Sequence record: PZ445532.1
DNA from: a phage
Strand: one strand, 5' to 3'
Length of the DNA: 44,581 bases
Both the position numbers and the translations under genes were made by a program. The notes under the pieces were generated by a model. The model did not search any database. It was given only the letters and a program-made list of their open reading frames with translations, and was not told where the DNA came from. Positions 4,454-29,912 of this stretch are shown piece by piece. The first letter of the stretch is position 1, and each line of letters begins with the position of its first letter.

Positions 4454-5218
4454 TTAGCGCGGAATGCCGCAAATCTCGTTGAGTGTTTTCACATCCAGCG
4501 CCACCGCCGTGGATTTTGGCTTGTCCGGGTATGGGATGAATTGCTCAACTTCAGGCCATGCTTTAATCAGCTTCTTGTCAGTATTGTGCAGGTCCAGCAC
4601 ACCGGTAACGGTGAGTTTGAACGCGTCATACTTAGCACGCAACTCACGGCGGGCCTGGTCGTTACGGTCCAGGCGCTTACAGAAGTCATGGTCCGCAGGG
4701 TAATCTGCGCGACCGCGTGGGAGATATATCGGCAGCGCTTTCCCGTCCTCGTCCACTTCGCACACTGACGCGAGCATAACTGTCTCGAACCCCGGAACGA
4801 TATCGCCGAGATCAGGCGCGAGCTTATTCATATATTTCTCTTCCCAGTATCCGCGATGTACGCGGTATTGGTGACCGTCACCGCTCAAGGACAAGGTGCG
4901 AACATTTCCGCCTGCGTTGATTTCGAAAGTGGCGTCGTAAACGCTGCCGATACCTTTCGGGCGGTCGGTGTTATAACTATATGTCGCCTTGTTGGTATAT
5001 ACACTGACGCCGTACATCTGCGACGGGTCATCGACGATTGCGGCAATGCGCTCTAGTAGCTTGGCGAACGTGCGAATGCCTTCCGGCATACAGTCCAGCG
5101 TAATGGCATAAGCCAGGTCGCGCGAGTCCGTCATGATTTGTTTGGCTTCGGTTGCGATTTCGTGGTCGCGCAGGATGTTAGCCAGAATCTGATTTTTAAT
5201 GTCTTTAGTCAGTCTCAT
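4454..5218 (-). CDS. hypothetical protein (second gene of antisense cassette)
   Basis: 254-aa ORF. RBS GAGGA 7 nt upstream of the ATG. No recognisable motif. Co-oriented with the DnaN-like gene. Confidence 0.6.
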   Translation of the reverse strand: MRLTKDIKNQILANILRDHEIATEAKQIMTDSRDLAYAITLDCMPEGIRTFAKLLERIAAIVDDPSQMYGVSVYTNKATYSYNTDRPKGIGSVYDATFEINAGGNVRTLSLSGDGHQYRVHRGYWEEKYMNKLAPDLGDIVPGFETVMLASVCEVDEDGKALPIYLPRGRADYPADHDFCKRLDRNDQARRELRAKYDAFKLTVTGVLDLHNTDKKLIKAWPEVEQFIPYPDKPKSTAVALDVKTLNEICGIPR

Positions 5219-5299: not shown

Positions 5300-5818
5300 C
5301 TACAAACGCATCGGCATGATAACAAGGAAGGCACCGCCTTTGAACAGCACACGTGTCGCCTTGTCTACTCCCTGAAATTCCAGTTTTAAGCTATCAAACT
5401 TACGGTCGAACAATTTAGCAATTTTGCAGGCGTCGGACAGGTATACCCCGGCAAACCCTATAGCCTCCACTTTAGCGCTGTCGAAAGACGTAACACGACG
5501 CCAGTCTGGGAATCTGCCGTCTATGATCTCTACGGGTATGGTACCGATTAATACGTCTTTACTATCAAAGAACGCAGCGGATGTGCCGTCTATGTTGCAG
5601 TATTCGAATTTTGTAGGTAAGCGGCCTTTAATTGCTACTATTTTACTTTCACCTTCGGGAACAACCGCGGACCCGCAGAACAAACGATGACCGTCGGTGG
5701 CCACGATGAATCCTTTCTCGTCGAAAAATACACCATTCAGATAGTACCGCACGTCATTAGTTGCGGCGCACATCATAGCGGCTTTAAGATCGGCATAGTT
5801 AACTTTAATCATTGTCAT
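5300..5818 (-). CDS. truncated beta-sliding-clamp (DnaN) homologue, domain II plus C-terminal segment
   Basis: 172 aa from MTMIKVNY (internal start of the 5300..6259 ORF, RBS GAGGAA). Contains DVRYYLNGVFF, ATDGHRL, DGRFPDWRRV and C-terminal VIMPMRL. These match the conserved E. coli DnaN blocks DVRYYLNGMLF, ATDGHRLA, DGRFPDYRRV and C-terminal VVMPMRL (recalled from memory). Confidence 0.7.
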   Translation of the reverse strand: MTMIKVNYADLKAAMMCAATNDVRYYLNGVFFDEKGFIVATDGHRLFCGSAVVPEGESKIVAIKGRLPTKFEYCNIDGTSAAFFDSKDVLIGTIPVEIIDGRFPDWRRVTSFDSAKVEAIGFAGVYLSDACKIAKLFDRKFDSLKLEFQGVDKATRVLFKGGAFLVIMPMRL

Positions 5819-5960
5819 TTCCTCATGTTGGTGTGCAACCAATATACTGCAACCAACATACGCAATGCAAGCGAATTTTGCGATTATTTTTATCACTGAT
5901 AATATTAGAGGCGTGAAGTCGAGCGGGTGGCCCGCTCTGCCACAATCCCAGGGGGATAGC

Positions 5961-6662
5961 ATGAAACTTACTAAAGCAGAATATGACGCGTTGCCGGAAG
6001 GTATGAAGGCGCTTTTTGTCGCCGATGGTGATGGGTATAAATCAACGTTCATGACCGCCGAAGAAGTACAGGCGGAGATCAAGGGTCTGAAAGACAACAA
6101 CGCGAAGCTGGTTAGCGAGAAGAAAGCAGAAGCCGAACGCCGCGCCGAAGCTGAGCGCCTTGCGAAAGAGAAAGAGGAAGCCGCCGCGCGCAAAAATGGC
6201 GACCTCGAAGCGATCGACAAGTCCTGGAAAGATAAGTTTGCAAAACACGAAGCAGACACATCGGGAAAAATCGAAGCCTACCGCAAGCAGATCCACGATC
6301 TAACCATCGGCAGCGCTGCCAAAGACCTGGCGTCGAAGCTATTCGGTAAGAATGCGGGCATCATGCAACGCCACGTTATGGACCGCCTGACGCTGGAGGA
6401 CGGCGAAGACGGCAGCTTGAAGGTGCGCGTCCTGCAGGATGGCAAACCGTCCGCGCTAACTATGGAAGAGCTTGAAAAAGAGTTCCGTAATAACGCCGAT
6501 TTTGCATCCGTCCTGGCTGGCACGCCAGCCGGTGGTGCGCCGAGCAAACCGACGCATGTTGTCGAAGATGTGAAGTCGAAAATCTCTATGGGCCACAGCT
6601 TCGGCATCACCGATCTGACGAAACAGGCTGGTGAAATCATCGCTAAAATGGGCGACGAGTAA
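5961..6662 (+). CDS. head scaffolding protein (putative)
   Basis: 233 aa from MKLTKAEYD (RBS GGGGGA). Charged, Ala/Glu/Lys-rich coiled-coil-like sequence directly upstream of the major capsid gene. Confidence 0.55.
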   Translation: MKLTKAEYDALPEGMKALFVADGDGYKSTFMTAEEVQAEIKGLKDNNAKLVSEKKAEAERRAEAERLAKEKEEAAARKNGDLEAIDKSWKDKFAKHEADTSGKIEAYRKQIHDLTIGSAAKDLASKLFGKNAGIMQRHVMDRLTLEDGEDGSLKVRVLQDGKPSALTMEELEKEFRNNADFASVLAGTPAGGAPSKPTHVVEDVKSKISMGHSFGITDLTKQAGEIIAKMGDE

Positions 6663-23734: not shown

Positions 23735-23740
23735 GGCTAA

Positions 23741-23761
23741 GGGGCCATACGGCCCCTTTTT
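23741..23761. terminator. rho-independent terminator between convergent genes
   Basis: GGGGCC-ATAC-GGCCCC followed by TTTTT. Confidence 0.8.
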
Positions 23762-24335
23762 AGTTTGAGTTTTCCCAGTCCATTTTGCGCCGCACCAGCG
23801 GGCTTTCGTAATATTCCTTCCCATCCACCTCCACTAAGGGCCAGTCATTAACGATGACGTAAGGCTCTGCGATATCCTCGATCACGCCGTGCGCGCTATG
23901 TTGTCCGAAATCTACGCCCACCAGGATAACCCCGGCAACGCGACGAGTGAGATACTCGCGAGCGCAACGTGCCTCGACCAGTCCTCGACGTATGCCGCTA
24001 GTGGCTTTAACCTCGTAGGTCCATACGGCATCGATCACATGCTCGCGGAAGTCGGGGCCGGATTTAGCCTTACGCTTTCCAACCATGATAATATCGCCGC
24101 GGTCGATAGTGTTAGCGCTAAACAGGCCGGTACGCATTAGCAAACCTTGCGGGATGCAACTACGCCCGCCTGCCTGCCCTTCGAGGTACATTCCTGCAAA
24201 CATTTCGCCCAGCACACCGACAAGGCGACTTTGCTTGCAAGCGTCGGACTTATACCTCCACTGGTCAAACTCGATGCTTGCGATCATTGCCGCAAGGTGG
24301 AATTGTTTACCGGTTATTTCATATTCGCCGTACAT
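23760..24335 (-). CDS. hypothetical protein (possible PD-(D/E)xK-like motif)
   Basis: 191-aa ORF, RBS GAGGGA. GDIIMVG ... TYEVKAT could be a D...ExK nuclease motif. Weak. Confidence 0.5.
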   Translation of the reverse strand: MYGEYEITGKQFHLAAMIASIEFDQWRYKSDACKQSRLVGVLGEMFAGMYLEGQAGGRSCIPQGLLMRTGLFSANTIDRGDIIMVGKRKAKSGPDFREHVIDAVWTYEVKATSGIRRGLVEARCAREYLTRRVAGVILVGVDFGQHSAHGVIEDIAEPYVIVNDWPLVEVDGKEYYESPLVRRKMDWENSN

Positions 24336-24377
24336 TGTGGGTCCCTCATTGCTGCGGGCCGAAGCCCGCGATTAGAA

Positions 24378-24932
24378 TTATTTAAGTGCGCCAGTCACCA
24401 GTGTTTTTTCCATGTTGCGGAAATCTTCCTGCGTCATGCAGATTTTCGATCCGTCTTCGCCGGTGAGCACGACCGTAGGCTGGAATTCTTGGCCTGCAAT
24501 GCCGAACTTAGCGGCTTTAACCATCTTGCCGAACGAGGCCACCGTATCTTCTGCAACGCGAATTGCGCTGTTATACGCATTAATCTCGCCGTCAAGACGC
24601 ACGGACAGATCTTTTAGGCTTTCAAACTGTTCTGCCGTTGTATCGATCTGAATCTCGTCATGCACGGTCATGTAAGACTCGCCCAGCAGGGCGGCATACG
24701 CTACCAGGTCAACGATGTTATCTTCCTGGTGCTTACGGTGCTGGCGCACCAGCTTCAGGCAGATCAGGAAGGTCCAGGCTTCTTGCTCGGACAGGTCGCG
24801 CCCGGTAAGCGCGTTAAACACGGCGGCGATCTGTTTAGCGCTGCGTTCTTCTTTCGCGTTGTCATAGCCGTTTTCTTTCCCGCGCTGTTCCATAGTGGTA
24901 GCGGCGTTTTTGCAGTATTCGTATGCTTTCAT
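24378..24932 (-). CDS. hypothetical protein
   Basis: 184-aa ORF. N-terminal block RGKENGY...IAAVFNALTGRDL...LKLVRQHR looks like a conserved phage domain of unknown function. Confidence 0.55.
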   Translation of the reverse strand: MKAYEYCKNAATTMEQRGKENGYDNAKEERSAKQIAAVFNALTGRDLSEQEAWTFLICLKLVRQHRKHQEDNIVDLVAYAALLGESYMTVHDEIQIDTTAEQFESLKDLSVRLDGEINAYNSAIRVAEDTVASFGKMVKAAKFGIAGQEFQPTVVLTGEDGSKICMTQEDFRNMEKTLVTGALK

Positions 24933-24996
24933 GATGTTTTCCTTTTTAGTGGGAGGCGGTATTGCCTCCCGATGTGGTTAAGATACTGCAACCAAC

Positions 24997-25467
24997 CTAT
25001 TGGTTGCAAGTGAATTTTGCAACGTTTATTGCGTAAATTTTCGGGACTAAATCGCCGCACGCCCGACGAATTGCCGCGATGTTCTTCGGACAGTCTTCAA
25101 TGATGACCAGTTCCGATACGTCCGCATAGCAGACCATTTTGAACACAGCGCACGCCTTAAACTCTGGCGGCGGGGTATCGTCCAGCATGTGGCGCATAAA
25201 CAACCGGCCTGTAGGGAATACTTCCAGTTGTTCGGCGGTGGTGTCCCAACATTCTCGCTGCCGGTTGGTCAGATACGCGATCTCGAAGCCTTGCTCTTTG
25301 TACATGGTCAGCAGCAGCAGCATATCCATGTTAAGGTCTTCGCGGACGTGCGCCTTGTGCCACTTCGCCCAGAAGGTGGATTTAGTTTTTATACCCGGCA
25401 CCAGGTCGGCACGCGCATCGCTTGAACCGTTAATAACTCCATCCAAATCGCAAATCAGTAATTTCAT
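24997..25467 (-). CDS. HAD-superfamily hydrolase (putative phosphatase/nucleotidase)
   Basis: N-terminal LICDLDGVI matches HAD motif I (DxDG). Confidence 0.55.
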   Translation of the reverse strand: MKLLICDLDGVINGSSDARADLVPGIKTKSTFWAKWHKAHVREDLNMDMLLLLTMYKEQGFEIAYLTNRQRECWDTTAEQLEVFPTGRLFMRHMLDDTPPPEFKACAVFKMVCYADVSELVIIEDCPKNIAAIRRACGDLVPKIYAINVAKFTCNQ

Positions 25468-25688
25468 TTTAGGCTCTCAATAAGGGTGGCTCGGGCGCTA
25501 CGCGCGGTGTAAGAGTTGCACACGAAATGACAACGTCGGGTCATGACAAGCCAACCGGTGAGGTCAAGGCCCAGGATGTATTCGGGGCGAGACGCGCGCA
25601 CCACACGATCGCGGCGTGGGTCGATGTTATAGTCTTTTTGCATTTGGTCTACGACCGCGTGGTTGCGGTCAACGATTAAGATATTCAC
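25464..25688 (-). CDS. hypothetical protein
   Basis: 74-aa ORF with overlapping start and stop relative to its neighbours. Confidence 0.45.
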   Translation of the reverse strand: MNILIVDRNHAVVDQMQKDYNIDPRRDRVVRASRPEYILGLDLTGWLVMTRRCHFVCNSYTARSARATLIESLK

Positions 25689-26154
25689 GTAGTTCTCCTT
25701 CGCTCATTATTTCAATTTGTGCGCTGCCGATGGGCGGCGCTTCGTCAAATATTATTAATTGCTGGCACTTGTTATTGCTCGGCCCGACTTCGCCGGTGAC
25801 GGCGTGAATGAATCTAATCCGCCAGTCCAGAAGAATTATCAGGTTTGCAGTCTTCCGGGCCAGCCTCGCCCACTTCGTCGACGTATCCTGATTCAGTAGC
25901 ATGACAGTCCGGCGTCCGTGCGCTGCGCACTCGACCCACGGCAGCGGATCGGAATACGGCGGGTTGCACCACTTCCACCCTTTCAACTCTGACCAGTCCA
26001 CCTCAAGCGCGCTGTGCTCTGCCGTGAAGTAACGCGGTAGCAGATGGTTGGCGTCGCTCGCCGCCATGTCGTAACGGAATCGGTACTTCCGACGAAGCGG
26101 TTTAAATAAAGCTGGCGGCGTGCACCAGCTATCCTTTTGCTCACTCTTCTGCAT
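25669..26154 (-). CDS. DNA N6-adenine methyltransferase (phage Dam family)
   Basis: WCTPP near the N-terminus and the catalytic NPPY motif (KWCNPPYSD). Confidence 0.8.
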   Translation of the reverse strand: MQKSEQKDSWCTPPALFKPLRRKYRFRYDMAASDANHLLPRYFTAEHSALEVDWSELKGWKWCNPPYSDPLPWVECAAHGRRTVMLLNQDTSTKWARLARKTANLIILLDWRIRFIHAVTGEVGPSNNKCQQLIIFDEAPPIGSAQIEIMSEGELREYLNR

Positions 26155-26599
26155 GATCTGGGTCTATCGCGTACAGGGCAATCTTTTTATTACTGTTTAG
26201 AACGCGTTGCACGCGCTTTGATTCCTCGGTGCCAAGCGGTCGGCAGTCGGAGTAGTAAGACCCGTTTGCACGCCACGCTATACGCACCAGTCCTTCCCGC
26301 GGGATCGAAGACTGGCGGCCTTTGGGGCGCACGTACTCCTCGGCGCGTTTACAATGTTCACGCAGACCTTCGGCAGTGATGCGGTTTAGTGCAACGCTGG
26401 TGGTGTATCCGGTGCGCTGCATAATCCCCATCAACTCGAAAAGCAGTTCGAAGCGTTCCTCTAACTCCATGCGACGCTTTTCTTCCGTTTCATAGCTTGA
26501 CAGGTAGGTATCTGCCAGCGCGTTCGCACGTTCGGCCTTTTCACGGGCTTCGAGGCATTGCGCGGCCCAGTATGCTTTTTCTTCTTGTAAAATTTTCAT
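26141..26599 (-). CDS. hypothetical protein
   Basis: 152-aa ORF, RBS GGAGA. Charged, coiled-coil-like N-terminus. Confidence 0.5.
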   Translation of the reverse strand: MKILQEEKAYWAAQCLEAREKAERANALADTYLSSYETEEKRRMELEERFELLFELMGIMQRTGYTTSVALNRITAEGLREHCKRAEEYVRPKGRQSSIPREGLVRIAWRANGSYYSDCRPLGTEESKRVQRVLNSNKKIALYAIDPDHAEE

Positions 26600-26680
26600 C
26601 GTGTCGTCTCCAGGTATTAAAAAGGGCGTCCAAACCGGACACCCTCAATATAATGCGACCAAGCCTATTATGCAACCAAA

Positions 26681-27493
26681 CTATTCATAGTGGCTAAACG
26701 CCTCGCACGACTCCGTACACGATCCGGTTTCATATTGTTTCATCGACCGCATTCGTGAGGCCAACTCGTCACGGCCTACTCCGTCGAATAAGGCTATAAC
26801 CTCGTTCAGTGTGTGCTTCCCTCGGTACATAGTTTGCACTTTCAGCCGGTTGTTGTTAGTGATTAACATGTTGATAAATTGGTCTTTTAGTGCCGGCTCG
26901 TCCATGCAAGCCAGCGCCACTTTCGGCAGCGACTTCTTAATACAGAACACGCAGTTGCCGAGGTGTTCTTGTATTCCTAAGTCGAACGGCTGGCCCGCCC
27001 ACCAGTCAAGAATATCTTGCTTTTCATAATCGCTAATGTCGGCCAGGTAGTGGAATCCATCCCGCGGCTTAATTCTTTTAGGCTCGTCCGCGCGCATACC
27101 TAACCAAGTTTCATAATTACCTTTGCCGTATCGCTCCTCGCAGTATTTAGTAAACGGGACGGTTTTCATGCGGTCGGTGCAGAACGCGCCCCCGACGTAT
27201 GGGTGCCCGTATTTGCGAACCATGCGCCGCCACGGCTCTAAATCTGGCCCGATTTGCTCCTCCGTTAGTACCTCATACCGCCCGGGCTTGCCCATTTCGG
27301 GGTCTGGCACTGCGCGTAGGAATGTTATGCGCCACCCCCAATGTTTGATTATGTCGCGCACAAACTGATATGTGGCAGGGTGTTCTGCGCCCGTATCCAT
27401 GAAAATAATTTCAGCGTGGGGATGGAGTTTAAGCACCTGTTTTGTCATGTAGGCGGATGTACGTCCGCCTGAAAAACTTATAATCTGTTTCAT
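26681..27493 (-). CDS. PAPS reductase-like / PP-loop ATP pyrophosphatase family protein
   Basis: N-terminal PP-loop ISFSGGRTSAYM (SGGxxS). C-terminal cysteines ETGSCTESCEAF. 270 aa. Confidence 0.7.
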   Translation of the reverse strand: MKQIISFSGGRTSAYMTKQVLKLHPHAEIIFMDTGAEHPATYQFVRDIIKHWGWRITFLRAVPDPEMGKPGRYEVLTEEQIGPDLEPWRRMVRKYGHPYVGGAFCTDRMKTVPFTKYCEERYGKGNYETWLGMRADEPKRIKPRDGFHYLADISDYEKQDILDWWAGQPFDLGIQEHLGNCVFCIKKSLPKVALACMDEPALKDQFINMLITNNNRLKVQTMYRGKHTLNEVIALFDGVGRDELASRMRSMKQYETGSCTESCEAFSHYE

Positions 27494-27500
27494 TATTGAT

Positions 27501-27824
27501 TTATCCGTAAAAATTCGGGTCGCGTGCGACGTCTACCAGATACAGGTTACTCATGCGATTGCCGTAGTGACCCGGTGTGCGCTGGCGGCACACAACGGCG
27601 AAGCCTGGAGGGATTGTATTGCCCGTCTCGATAATCCACGCCACGCGTGCGCCGGATAGCGTCTTGCCGTTGTATTCGATACGTGTTCCACCATCGGCAG
27701 TGTTAAGGTTGCCAATCTTGCATCCGGTGGACTTCAGACGGACGACTCCGGTTTTGCTGTCGTAGGTGAATAGCTGGTTAGTCATTGCGACCGAAAAATC
27801 GATTGGTTCGTATATAGCGTTCAT
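27501..27824 (-). CDS. hypothetical protein
   Basis: 107-aa ORF. Confidence 0.5.
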   Translation of the reverse strand: MNAIYEPIDFSVAMTNQLFTYDSKTGVVRLKSTGCKIGNLNTADGGTRIEYNGKTLSGARVAWIIETGNTIPPGFAVVCRQRTPGHYGNRMSNLYLVDVARDPNFYG

Positions 27825-28051
27825 TTTAAATTTTCCTCGTTAACCGCTATCGCGAAGCCGCGCGGAGTGAGCGACCGGATTAATTTTGTGCGGGCGGATT
27901 TGCCTCCGAGGCGACTATACTGTTTCGAGTACCCTTTTTCAACGAAAACAGGTTTCTTCTCTGGCATACGGGAGCCGTAGCACTTATGCCCCATCTCGGC
28001 AGCACGCTCAATCATCAAGCCGCTGCCGTCAAATAATGACCAGATAATCAT
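27821..28051 (-). CDS. hypothetical protein
   Basis: 76-aa ORF. Its ATG overlaps the helicase stop (ATGA). Confidence 0.45.
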   Translation of the reverse strand: MIIWSLFDGSGLMIERAAEMGHKCYGSRMPEKKPVFVEKGYSKQYSRLGGKSARTKLIRSLTPRGFAIAVNEENLK

Positions 28052-29738: not shown

Positions 29739-29912
29739 TTACTTTTGCTCTGCGCGGTAGCGGCGCTGCCGTTCGCGCTCTTTTTTATTGCGGCACGATT
29801 TGCACTCTGCCCGATACCCATCCGGGCTTCGCGCAGTCTTGCCGGTGTATTTGTGGAACTGGGATAGCGGTTTAACGCAGCCGCAATTACTGCAACGTTT
29901 TTCTTCAATCAT
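29739..29912 (-). CDS. small zinc-ribbon protein
   Basis: 57 aa from MIEEKRCSNCGC...CKSC (RBS GAGGA 9 nt upstream). Two CxxC pairs. Confidence 0.4.
   Translation of the reverse strand: MIEEKRCSNCGCVKPLSQFHKYTGKTARSPDGYRAECKSCRNKKERERQRRYRAEQK

What the first reader, a model, noticed from the sequence alone, without database searches (positions are those of the whole stretch)
23760..27493. Candidate DNA-modification / nucleotide-metabolism cluster at the distal end of the early operon
A Dam-family N6-adenine methyltransferase (25669..26154), a PAPS-reductase-like PP-loop enzyme (26681..27493) and a HAD-family phosphatase (24997..25467) are interleaved with five proteins of unknown function. 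PP-loop enzymes of this family take part in base-modification pathways in other phages. The combination raises the possibility of a DNA modification beyond GATC methylation.
Basis: inference. Interest (0 to 1): 0.55.

Follow-up and report, generated by a model that had tools for sequence, protein, structure and literature searches.

The report
NinC-type anti-defence gene in Dhillonvirus
This is the accessory, host-defence-countering end of the early genes of an ordinary HK578-like coliphage; its one unusual feature is a recently acquired lambda-NinC-type 'PAPS-reductase-like' gene, whose relatives are implicated in phage escape from phosphorothioate-based (Dnd) restriction.

Summary
The window is a complete Dhillonvirus (HK578-like coliphage) genome. 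The three named genes exist at the stated coordinates: Dam (Pfam 1e-34), a PP-loop PAPS-reductase-like protein, and a HAD/PNK-phosphatase-like protein. They are not one pathway. Region 23760-26679 is conserved at about 90% nt in about 159 Dhillonvirus isolates. The PP-loop gene (26681-27493) is an ORF-sized insertion absent from all of them and found only in a few metagenomic Dhillonvirus contigs.

The protein is a lambda NinC orthologue (49% identity). It is 52.5% identical to the PAPS domain of Vibrio phage 44E38.1 p0018, a PAPS-Dam fusion that with its neighbour confers escape from Dnd restriction. It keeps an invariant SGGRTS PP-loop and five invariant cysteines, and is under strong purifying selection (dN/dS 0.05). 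The cassette is 99.9% identical between backbones whose flanks are about 88% identical. The only recurrent fusion partners in the family are N6-adenine DNA methyltransferases.

Two 'unknowns' can be named: 26141-26599 is 79% identical to the validated anti-Tmn protein, and 23760-24335 has a PD-(D/E)xK nuclease fold. The adjacent Dcm gene carries an inactivating in-frame deletion.

Verdict: an anti-defence arm with a new member of a known gene family. DNA modification by NinC plus Dam is plausible but unproven.

The parts
26681..27493 (-). NinC-family PP-loop / PAPS-reductase-like protein (270 aa), the single unusual gene. It has an SGGRTS PP-loop, invariant C105, C181xxC184 and C259xxxC263, and a disordered C-terminal tail.
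26680..27498 (.). Insertion relative to standard Dhillonviruses: 819 bp replace 16 bp of the HNH-to-p152 intergenic region of Bas15 PaulFeyerabend.
   Evidence: blastn junctions against L001. No phage record covers this stretch. The cassette is present in metagenome contigs L002-L007.
26600..26680 (-). Conserved intergenic region with a terminator-like hairpin (GAGGGUGUCC-GGUUU-GGACGCCCUU followed by UUUUU). It travels with the PAPS cassette and is 100% identical in L004/L005.
   Evidence: Sequence; fold (z only -1.48); identity profile.
25669..26154 (-). Dam-family N6-adenine DNA methyltransferase (161 aa, NPPY at residue 64). It is a resident Dhillonvirus core gene and is homologous to the C-terminal domain of the p0018 fusion.
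   Evidence: Pfam PF05869 1.1e-34. 35.6% identity, E=1e-24 to p0018 residues 298-459. Annotated as Dam in relatives.
26141..26599 (-). Homologue of the Dhillonvirus anti-Tmn protein (152 aa). It overlaps the Dam start by 14 nt.
   Evidence: 79% identity, E=4e-88 to SM_S22 CDS0035. ORF35 of SM_S22 is the experimentally shown anti-Tmn and is absent in SM_A8 (PMC11846954). SM_A8 has no gene between Dam and HNH. The PHROG label 'DNA ligase' has no Pfam or PDB support.
25464..25688 (-). 74-aa protein of unknown function. It is hypervariable among PAPS-carrying contigs.
   Evidence: PHROG 10685 only. 60-65% nt identity to L002/L004/L005 while neighbouring genes are about 93%.
24997..25467 (-). HAD-superfamily phosphatase (156 aa) that matches the PHROG 'polynucleotide kinase' family. 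It is a resident core gene.
   Evidence: PHROG 415 1.9e-35. Pfam PF03767 at 22.9 bits, below the cut-off. DLDGV motif I. No PDB sequence match.
24378..24932 (-). DUF6378-domain protein (184 aa), function unknown. It is a resident core gene.
   Evidence: Pfam PF19905 1.5e-9. I regard the PHROG 'phosphofructokinase' label as unreliable.
23760..24335 (-). Probable PD-(D/E)xK nuclease-fold protein (191 aa). Homologues were found in only 7 clusters; those with a source name or inspected context (SECphi4, and the equivalent gene in Dhillonvirus loci) are Dhillonvirus.
27501..27824 (-). HNH (homing) endonuclease, resident in the genus. The PAPS gene starts 7 nt after its stop codon.
   Evidence: PHROG 99 8e-15; annotation in relatives; sequence.
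27821..28051 (-). Remnant of the Dcm-like C5-cytosine methyltransferase. An in-frame deletion of 155 codons removes the catalytic core, including the PPC motif.
   Evidence: Alignment to the Bas15 Dcm. Deletion alleles compared. 149 of 155 isolates carry at least 80% of the Dcm gene at the DNA level.
23739..23758 (.). G+C-rich hairpin between the convergent tail-fibre gene and the early array, detected by the scan on the + strand with its T-run (AAGGGGCC-ATAC-GGCCCCTT, then TTTAGTTT); I infer that the palindromic stem could serve both strands.
   Evidence: Consensus scan.

Best explanation
The interval is the anti-defence / accessory arm of a Dhillonvirus early operon, not a biosynthetic pathway. 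Most of its genes are resident genus genes: an orphan Dam, an anti-Tmn homologue, a HAD phosphatase, a DUF6378 protein and a PD-(D/E)xK-fold protein.

The PP-loop gene is a mobile single-gene cassette of the lambda NinC family. It has been dropped between the HNH gene and the anti-Tmn gene and is exchanged among Dhillonvirus backbones by recombination.

Most likely it is a counter-defence enzyme directed at phosphorothioate-based (Dnd/Ssp-type) or related restriction. The proposed mechanism is inferred, not shown:
1. The intact SGGRTS PP-loop binds ATP and adenylates a substrate.
2. Three invariant cysteines (C105, C181, C184) hold an Fe-S cluster, as in APS reductase, DndC or TtuA.
3. The flexible C-terminal CxxxC tail carries or relays sulfur.
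4. The enzyme acts on phage DNA in concert with a Dam-type N6-adenine methyltransferase. That partner is fused to it in some phages and encoded one gene away here.
5. The result is that phage DNA is marked or shielded.
For: Shown here:
- Orthology to lambda NinC.
- 52.5% identity to the PAPS domain of 44E38.1 p0018, and 35.6% identity of the window Dam to p0018's Dam domain.
- Insertion boundaries and absence from about 155-159 isolates.
- Presence in five independent metagenome contigs on Dhillonvirus backbones.
- dS about 0.5 with dN/dS 0.05 between the two alleles.
- 893/894 nt identity of the cassette plus intergenic region against about 88% for both flanks in L004/L005.
- Invariant PP-loop and five cysteines down to about 30% identity.
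- PAPS/APS-reductase and Fe-S PP-loop structural neighbours.
- SspD and BrxP profile hits.
- Fusion to PF05869 Dam in 16 of 26 IMG/VR loci, and to the unrelated PF02086 D12 methyltransferase in L009.
- These methyltransferases are the only recurrent fusion partners in 128 representatives.
- NinC-like genes sit as singletons in variable regions of unrelated phages.

From the literature:
- Transferring p0018 plus p0019 into a Dnd-sensitive vibriophage gave escape from Dnd (bioRxiv 10.1101/2021.05.05.442762).
- PAPS reductases cluster in anti-defence hotspots and in Aca-regulated operons (PMC13551039).
- ORF35 is the anti-Tmn protein (PMC11846954).
Against: - No biochemical activity or substrate is known for any NinC-family protein.
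- The anti-Dnd experiment moved two genes together, so the PAPS domain's own contribution is unresolved.
- The second gene (p0019, DUF6475) has no homologue here.
- Only 6 of 128 representatives are fused to a methyltransferase, and most NinC genes (lambda, P22-like, SBP) have no phage Dam nearby.
- The window Dam is a resident gene, so its proximity to the insert may be coincidental.
- DndC and SspD need partner ATPases and DNA-binding or nicking proteins, and none is encoded here.
- The SspD match covers only the N-terminal half.
- The Fe-S and sulfur-relay roles of the cysteines are inferred from pattern alone.
Confidence: 0.55

Rival explanations
1. Sulfur-assimilation auxiliary metabolic gene. 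The protein is a CysH-type PAPS/APS reductase that boosts host sulfite and cysteine supply during infection. This is the default database annotation ('moron, auxiliary metabolic gene').
For: PHROG and GenBank labels say so. The closest solved structures are APS/PAPS reductases.
Against: - Sequence similarity to CysH is confined to residues 4-81.
- NCBIfam CysH/APS models score 16-26 bits against cut-offs of 154-254.
- The family keeps a canonical ATP-type SGGRTS PP-loop. From my own knowledge, not tested here, CysH lacks a canonical PP-loop.
- The C-terminus reads SC(T/S)ESCE, not the ECG(L/I)H motif that I recall as the CysH catalytic motif (own knowledge, not tested here).
- Fusion partners are DNA methyltransferases.
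- Genetic evidence points to anti-Dnd.
Confidence: 0.05
2. HAD phosphatase, DUF6378 protein, Dam, the PP-loop enzyme and the unknowns form one pathway that builds a hypermodified base in phage DNA.
For: The genes are co-oriented and tightly packed. PP-loop enzymes (for example QueC) act in known phage base-modification pathways (general knowledge). A separate Nmad5 'nucleotide-modification-associated' gene exists elsewhere in the genome.
Against: - The PP-loop gene is absent from about 155-159 relatives that keep all the other genes, so the genes did not co-evolve as a set.
- One member is an anti-Tmn homologue and one has a nuclease fold.
- No QueC match was found for the PP-loop protein, and no transglycosylase or DpdA-like match in the 29 window ORFs scanned.
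- Dhillonviruses are comparatively RM-sensitive.
- NinC genes occur as singletons elsewhere.
Confidence: 0.07
3. The NinC-like enzyme acts on RNA or a small molecule rather than on DNA. Examples would be tRNA thiolation or lysidine-type modification, or destruction or synthesis of a nucleotide signal. The methyltransferase fusions would then be incidental gene-fusion events in compact phage genomes.
Against: Two unrelated N6-adenine DNA methyltransferase families were independently fused to it, and no RNA-binding domain is seen among 128 representatives. The genetic link is to a DNA-backbone-modification-dependent restriction system.
Confidence: 0.15
4. Non-catalytic or competitive inhibitor. 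The protein mimics DndC/SspD and poisons or sequesters host phosphorothioation / restriction complexes or the cysteine desulfurase, without modifying phage DNA.
For: Homology to SspD and BrxP. There is no phage-encoded DndD/E-type partner. Anti-defence proteins often act by mimicry (general knowledge).
Against: The ATP-binding PP-loop, the catalytic-type acidic residues and five cysteines are strictly invariant over more than 100 divergent clusters, and dN/dS is 0.05. Both argue for retained enzymatic chemistry.
Confidence: 0.15

Closest known systems
Bacteriophage lambda NinC (nin region; NP_040635) and P22-like NinC
   Same: Full-length homologue: 49% identity to lambda NinC and 63% to P22-like NinC. 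It has the same SGGRTS loop and the same cysteines, and it is a standalone, dispensable-region gene.
   Different: It sits in a virulent siphovirus (Dhillonvirus) early operon rather than a lambdoid nin region. NinC itself has no known function, so the homology names the family but not the activity.
Vibrio phage 44E38.1 p0018 (PAPS-reductase-Dam fusion, anti-Dnd; Piel et al.)
   Same: The PAPS domain is 52.5% identical. The window also encodes a Dam of the same Pfam family (35.6% identical) one gene away. Both lie in variable, recombination-exchanged accessory regions.
   Different: Here the two domains are separate genes with an anti-Tmn gene between them. The co-transferred partner p0019 (DUF6475) is absent. 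The host is E. coli, and no phenotype is known.
DndC / SspD / BrxP (PAPS-reductase-like sulfurtransferases of DNA phosphorothioation)
   Same: PP-loop ATP-pyrophosphatase fold with conserved cysteines. PADLOC SspD 3.8e-11 and BrxP 1e-6.
   Different: The match covers only the N-terminal half. No DndD/SspC ATPase, DndE/SspB or desulfurase gene is encoded. The protein is much smaller than BrxP. It was not detected by any DndC model at E<=0.01.
Assimilatory APS/PAPS reductase CysH (PDB 2GOY, 6VPU, 1SUR)
   Different: It fails all CysH family cut-offs. It has a canonical ATP PP-loop and a different C-terminal motif, and its fusion partners are DNA methyltransferases.
Dhillonvirus anti-Tmn (PhiSMS22 ORF35; PMC11846954), for ORF 26141-26599
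   Same: 79% identity over the full length, at the same position between Dam and HNH.
   Different: The paper reports that close homologues differ in potency against a given Tmn, so activity of this allele is not assured.

Membership tests
Lambda NinC family (PAPS-reductase-like phage proteins) | Full-length sequence homology to lambda NinC | tested here: met
   BLASTP gives 49% identity over 277 aa, E=3e-99.
Lambda NinC family (PAPS-reductase-like phage proteins) | Family-invariant SGGRTS PP-loop and cysteines C105, C181xxC184, C259xxxC263 | tested here: met
   All are present in the window protein and invariant in lambda NinC, p0018 and nine distant IMG/VR homologues.
CysH PAPS/APS reductase (sulfate assimilation) | Score above the curated cut-off of CysH / APS-reductase equivalog models | tested here: not met
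   16.5-26.5 bits against cut-offs of 154-254 bits.
CysH PAPS/APS reductase (sulfate assimilation) | PAPS-reductase alpha/beta fold | tested here: met
CysH PAPS/APS reductase (sulfate assimilation) | C-terminal ECG(L/I)H catalytic cysteine motif (motif recalled from my own knowledge) | tested here: not met
   The C-terminus reads GSCTESCEAF.
DndC / SspD phosphorothioation sulfurtransferase | Profile match to DndC/SspD models | tested here: inconclusive
   The SspD model matches at E=3.8e-11 but only over residues 2-140, against profile positions 1-121 of 277. BrxP matches at 1e-6. No DndC hit.
DndC / SspD phosphorothioation sulfurtransferase | Operon partners: DndD/SspC ATPase, DndE/SspB, cysteine desulfurase | tested here: not met
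   None of the neighbouring ORFs matches these in PADLOC, Pfam or NCBIfam.
DndC / SspD phosphorothioation sulfurtransferase | Phosphorothioate linkages in the DNA | not testable with these tools
   Needs LC-MS/MS or iodine cleavage of virion DNA.
Phage anti-Dnd PAPS-Dam module (44E38.1 p0018/p0019) | Homologous PAPS domain | tested here: met
   52.5% identity, E=4.6e-102.
Phage anti-Dnd PAPS-Dam module (44E38.1 p0018/p0019) | PAPS domain fused to a Dam domain in one polypeptide | tested here: not met
   They are separate genes (26681-27493 and 25669-26154) with ORF 26141-26599 between them.
Phage anti-Dnd PAPS-Dam module (44E38.1 p0018/p0019) | Presence of the co-transferred partner p0019 (DUF6475) | tested here: not met
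   No BLASTP similarity to any ORF of the interval. p0019 is DUF6475.
Phage anti-Dnd PAPS-Dam module (44E38.1 p0018/p0019) | Confers escape from DndFGH restriction | not testable with these tools
   Needs plating on Dnd+ hosts.
Dam family PF05869 (phage N6-adenine methyltransferase) | Profile match above cut-off and an (D/N)PPY motif | tested here: met
   120 bits against a 28.1-bit cut-off. NPPY at residue 64. The TIGR01712 equivalog scores 83 bits, below its 97-bit cut-off. GATC specificity was not tested.
HAD phosphatase superfamily | Profile match and DxDx(T/V) nucleophile motif | tested here: inconclusive
   Pfam scores 22.9 bits, below the 27-bit cut-off. PHROG 415 gives 1.9e-35. DLDGV is present at residues 7-11. 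No PDB sequence hit.
7-deazaguanine (QueC/DpdA) phage DNA modification | QueC-type PP-loop enzyme plus DpdA transglycosylase | tested here: not met
Dhillonvirus anti-Tmn (for ORF 26141-26599) | Orthology and synteny with PhiSMS22 ORF35 | tested here: met
   79% identity, in the same Dam-to-HNH slot. The slot is empty in SM_A8, as the paper states. Activity was not tested.

The most novel reading that the evidence does not exclude
NinC plus a Dam-type methyltransferase is a minimal two-component phage DNA-marking system. The Dam module supplies site recognition and base flipping at GATC-type sites. The NinC PP-loop / Fe-S enzyme installs a sulfur-containing (phosphorothioate-like) or other ATP-activated mark on phage DNA, making it look 'self' to Dnd/Ssp/BREX-4-type systems. 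This would give lambda NinC its first function. This phage, with natural PAPS-plus and PAPS-minus siblings and a split PAPS/Dam arrangement, would be the ideal test bed.
Probability: 0.15. Interest if true: 0.8.

Novelty: new member of a known kind. Interest (0 to 1): 0.4.

Why it matters
NinC has been an orphan lambda gene for decades. 'PAPS reductase' genes are routinely mis-filed as sulfur-metabolism AMGs in viromes. This phage shows a NinC-type gene behaving as a recombination-swapped, strongly constrained single-gene cassette inside an anti-defence arm, next to Dam, a dead Dcm and an anti-Tmn homologue, in a genus that is genetically tractable (in-vitro rebooting has been done for Dhillonviruses).

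It offers near-isogenic natural comparisons (with and without the PAPS gene, Dcm intact or deleted) for testing whether NinC enzymes modify DNA and which defence they defeat. For annotation practice, it argues for relabelling these genes as candidate counter-defence enzymes. For phage therapy, it flags a host-range determinant.

Tried and rejected
- QueC / 7-deazaguanine pathway: rejected. There is no QueC or DpdA signal.
- HNH plus PAPS as one mobile homing unit: rejected. The HNH gene is resident in all relatives. The endonuclease preceding the PAPS gene in Klebsiella phage SBP is unrelated.
- A homologue of the 44E38.1 partner p0019: none found.
- Donor of the cassette: none found. The best match is 71% aa in 50,697 phage records and 66% nt in 5,426 E. 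coli genomes.
- 'DNA ligase' and 'phosphofructokinase' PHROG labels for 26141-26599 and 24378-24932: no support from Pfam, NCBIfam or PDB.
- PDB sequence searches for the HAD, p191 and p152 proteins gave nothing usable.
- The AFDB50 fold library was unavailable.
- Idea that Dcm loss is caused by PAPS gain: two of three PAPS-plus haplotypes are Dcm-deleted, against 6 of 155 isolates (Fisher p=0.007). However, one allele (FDGSG|FRMPEK) is shared with the PAPS-minus phages Teewinot and Shigella 1b, and a PAPS-plus contig (L003) has intact Dcm. The link is therefore not established.
- GATC (166 observed, 171 expected) and CCWGG (148 observed, 111 expected) are not depleted.

Full report
IDENTITY OF THE WINDOW. 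Megablast of the finding interval hits 159 phage records. Nearly all are Escherichia/Shigella phages of the genus Dhillonvirus (HK578, EP23, SSL-2009a, BASEL Bas14-18), at 88-92% identity. The window length (44,581 bp) and gene order (terminase at position 1, structural genes on the plus strand, an early array on the minus strand from about 36.8 kb down to 23.76 kb) match a complete Dhillonvirus genome.

CHECK OF THE OBSERVATION.
- The Dam call is solid: PF05869 at 120 bits and NPPY at residue 64.
- The PP-loop protein matches Pfam PAPS_reduct only over residues 4-66 (E=4e-8). It matches PHROG 33262/424 ('phosphoadenosine phosphosulfate reductase') over its full length (2e-96).
- The HAD call is weaker. 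Pfam is below the cut-off. PHROG 415, the 'polynucleotide kinase' family, gives 2e-35, and the DLDGV nucleophile motif is present.
- There are four other ORFs in the interval, not five.
- A G+C-rich hairpin with a T-run at 23739-23758 separates the array from the convergent tail-fibre gene.

THE KEY COMPARATIVE RESULT. In all 159 relatives the match to the query stops at window position about 26,679-26,689. No record covers the PP-loop gene.
- In Bas15 PaulFeyerabend the order is Dam, a 154-aa ORF, a 98-nt spacer, HNH, Dcm (231 aa), then helicase.
- Pairwise blastn places the difference precisely: window 26680-27498 (819 bp, essentially the ORF alone) replaces 16 bp of that spacer.
- The gene starts 7 nt after the HNH stop codon. 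It is followed by the ancestral spacer with its terminator-like hairpin.
- tblastn finds no phage record above 71% amino-acid identity. The best E. coli genome match is 66% nt. The donor is therefore unknown.
- The exact protein, or a 96%-identical allele, does occur on metagenome contigs that are clearly Dhillonvirus. They show helicase, (Dcm), HNH, PAPS, 152-aa ORF, Dam, 74-aa ORF, HAD, DUF6378, 191-aa ORF and tail fibre.

THE GENE IS FUNCTIONAL AND MOBILE. The two Dhillonvirus alleles differ by dS of about 0.5 with dN/dS of 0.05. Against contigs L004/L005, the PAPS ORF plus the downstream spacer is 893/894 identical. The immediately flanking HNH and 152-aa genes are only 87.7% and 88.7% identical. 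That is the signature of recent cassette exchange by recombination between diverged backbones.

WHAT THE PROTEIN IS.
- It is a full-length homologue of lambda NinC (49% identity, E=3e-99) and of P22-like NinC (63%).
- It is not CysH. The CysH/APS equivalog models score 16-26 bits against cut-offs of 154-254.
- PADLOC's best hits are the phosphorothioation enzymes SspD (3.8e-11, N-terminal half only) and BrxP (1e-6).
- Across the family, down to about 30% identity, several features are invariant or nearly so: the SGGRTS PP-loop, C105, C181xxC184, and C259xxxC263 in the flexible tail.
- By analogy with APS reductase, DndC and TtuA, I infer the following, none of which is shown: ATP-dependent adenylation, an Fe-S cluster on three core cysteines, and a sulfur-relay tail.

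LINK TO DNA AND TO DAM.
- Of 26 IMG/VR loci encoding relatives, 16 have the PAPS domain fused in one ORF to a PF05869 Dam domain. One more has a Dam about 2.3 kb downstream.
- L009 is fused to the unrelated D12-class N6-adenine methyltransferase PF02086 (1e-56).
- In an exhaustive search of 1.84 billion representatives, the family has 105 clusters at E<=1e-30.
- Among 128 representatives scanned, the only recurrent extra domains are Dam (5) and D12 (1). The fusion is real and arose at least twice, but it is a minority architecture.
- One fused member, Vibrio phage 44E38.1 p0018, is 52.5% identical to the window protein. Its Dam domain is 35.6% identical to the window Dam.
- Piel et al. showed that moving p0018 together with p0019 into a Dnd-sensitive sibling phage gave full plating on a Dnd+ host. 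[quoted passage not shown]
- A 2026 survey likewise lists phage PAPS reductases as DndC/SspD homologues in anti-defence hotspots.
- The window therefore encodes a split version of that fusion. The caveats are that the Dam is a resident gene, that p0019 (DUF6475) has no counterpart here, and that lambda, P22-like, Jedunavirus and Tunavirus NinC genes are singletons without a phage Dam nearby.

THE REST OF THE 'CLUSTER'.
- ORF 26141-26599 is 79% identical to SM_S22 CDS0035. The Commun Biol 2025 paper identifies ORF35 of PhiSMS22, absent in PhiSMA8, as an anti-Tmn protein. SM_A8 indeed has nothing between Dam and HNH. This 'unknown' is therefore an anti-Tmn homologue, and its 'DNA ligase' label is unsupported.
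- ORF 24378-24932 carries DUF6378. ORF 25464-25688 remains unknown.
- All of these are conserved in relatives that lack the PP-loop gene. BASEL phenotyping describes Dhillonviruses as RM-sensitive relative to 7-deazaguanine phages.
- Together this argues against a resident hypermodification pathway. It argues for an accessory arm of independent counter-defence and DNA-handling genes.

DCM. The 76-aa ORF 27821-28051 is the Dcm-like methyltransferase with an in-frame loss of 155 codons, including the PPC catalytic motif.
- 149 of 155 isolates keep at least 80% of the Dcm gene at the DNA level.
- At least three different in-frame deletion alleles exist. The first is in the window, L004 and L005. 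The second is in Teewinot, Shigella 1b and L002. The third is in PS2.
- All three retain the start and the last ~51 codons. This retained stretch contains a promoter-like TTGAAA-17-TATAGT.
- Dcm loss is enriched among PAPS-plus haplotypes (2 of 3 against 6 of 155; p=0.007). However, a PAPS-plus contig has intact Dcm, and one allele is shared with PAPS-minus phages. I therefore treat any causal link as unproven.

VERDICT. The finding is a new member of a known kind: a NinC / PAPS-reductase-like counter-defence candidate, newly seen as a mobile cassette in Dhillonvirus. Its biochemical function remains an open and now readily testable question.

Noticed in passing
window 27821-28051 (-): The Dcm-like C5-cytosine methyltransferase is reduced to 76 aa by an in-frame 155-codon deletion. 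At least three independent in-frame deletion alleles of this gene exist in the genus. All keep the start and the last ~51 codons.
   Followed up: yes
window 26141-26599 (-): This ORF is 79% identical to the experimentally validated anti-Tmn protein (ORF35) of Dhillonvirus PhiSMS22. The database label 'DNA ligase' is unsupported.
   Followed up: yes
window 4454-5218 (-) and 5300-6259 (-): A minus-strand, lower-GC island lies inside the structural arm. It encodes an Nmad5 'nucleotide modification associated domain 5' protein (PF18757, 1e-57) and a clamp-like / RusA-like ORF. Only 8 of 159 relatives cover at least 80% of it. Nmad5 point mutants of Dhillonviruses escape Tmn (PMC11846954). This is the other candidate DNA-modification gene of the genome.
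   Followed up: partly
window 25464-25688 (-): The 74-aa ORF between HAD and Dam is only 60-65% nt identical to the PAPS-carrying contigs L002/L004/L005, while its neighbours are about 93% identical. This is a sharply hypervariable small gene, as expected of a defence-interaction protein.
   Followed up: no
window 26600-27493 vs L004/L005: The PAPS ORF plus downstream spacer is 893/894 identical to the metagenome contigs, while the flanking HNH and p152 genes are about 88% identical. This indicates recent recombinational exchange of the cassette.
   Followed up: yes
window 27914-27942 (-) and 26615-26645 (-): A promoter-like TTGAAA-17-TATAGT (10 of 12) lies inside the retained 3' part of the Dcm remnant, upstream of HNH. 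A terminator-like 10-bp hairpin plus U5 lies in the spacer between PAPS and the anti-Tmn homologue. These are consensus matches only.
   Followed up: partly
L002 3497-3739; L036 (Teewinot) 1874-2116: An 80-aa predicted membrane protein gene (98.8% identical between the two) occupies a slot just upstream of the anti-Tmn homologue in some Dhillonviruses. It is absent from the window. This is a second indel slot in the same arm.
   Followed up: partly
L009 5953-7698: A NinC-like domain is fused to a D12-class (PF02086) N6-adenine methyltransferase. This fusion is independent of the PF05869 Dam fusions common in vibriophages.
   Followed up: yes
window 29739-29912 (-) region: A short ORF lies upstream of the helicase. 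By position it may correspond to the 57-aa 'Lar-like restriction alleviation protein' annotated two genes upstream of the helicase in SM_S22. Neither its frame nor any sequence similarity was checked. If confirmed, it would fit the anti-defence character of this arm.
   Followed up: no
L041 (SM_A8) 25375-25731: In SM_A8 the HAD-phosphatase gene is annotated as shortened (118 aa) and the anti-Tmn gene is absent. This shows further natural variation in this arm.
   Followed up: no
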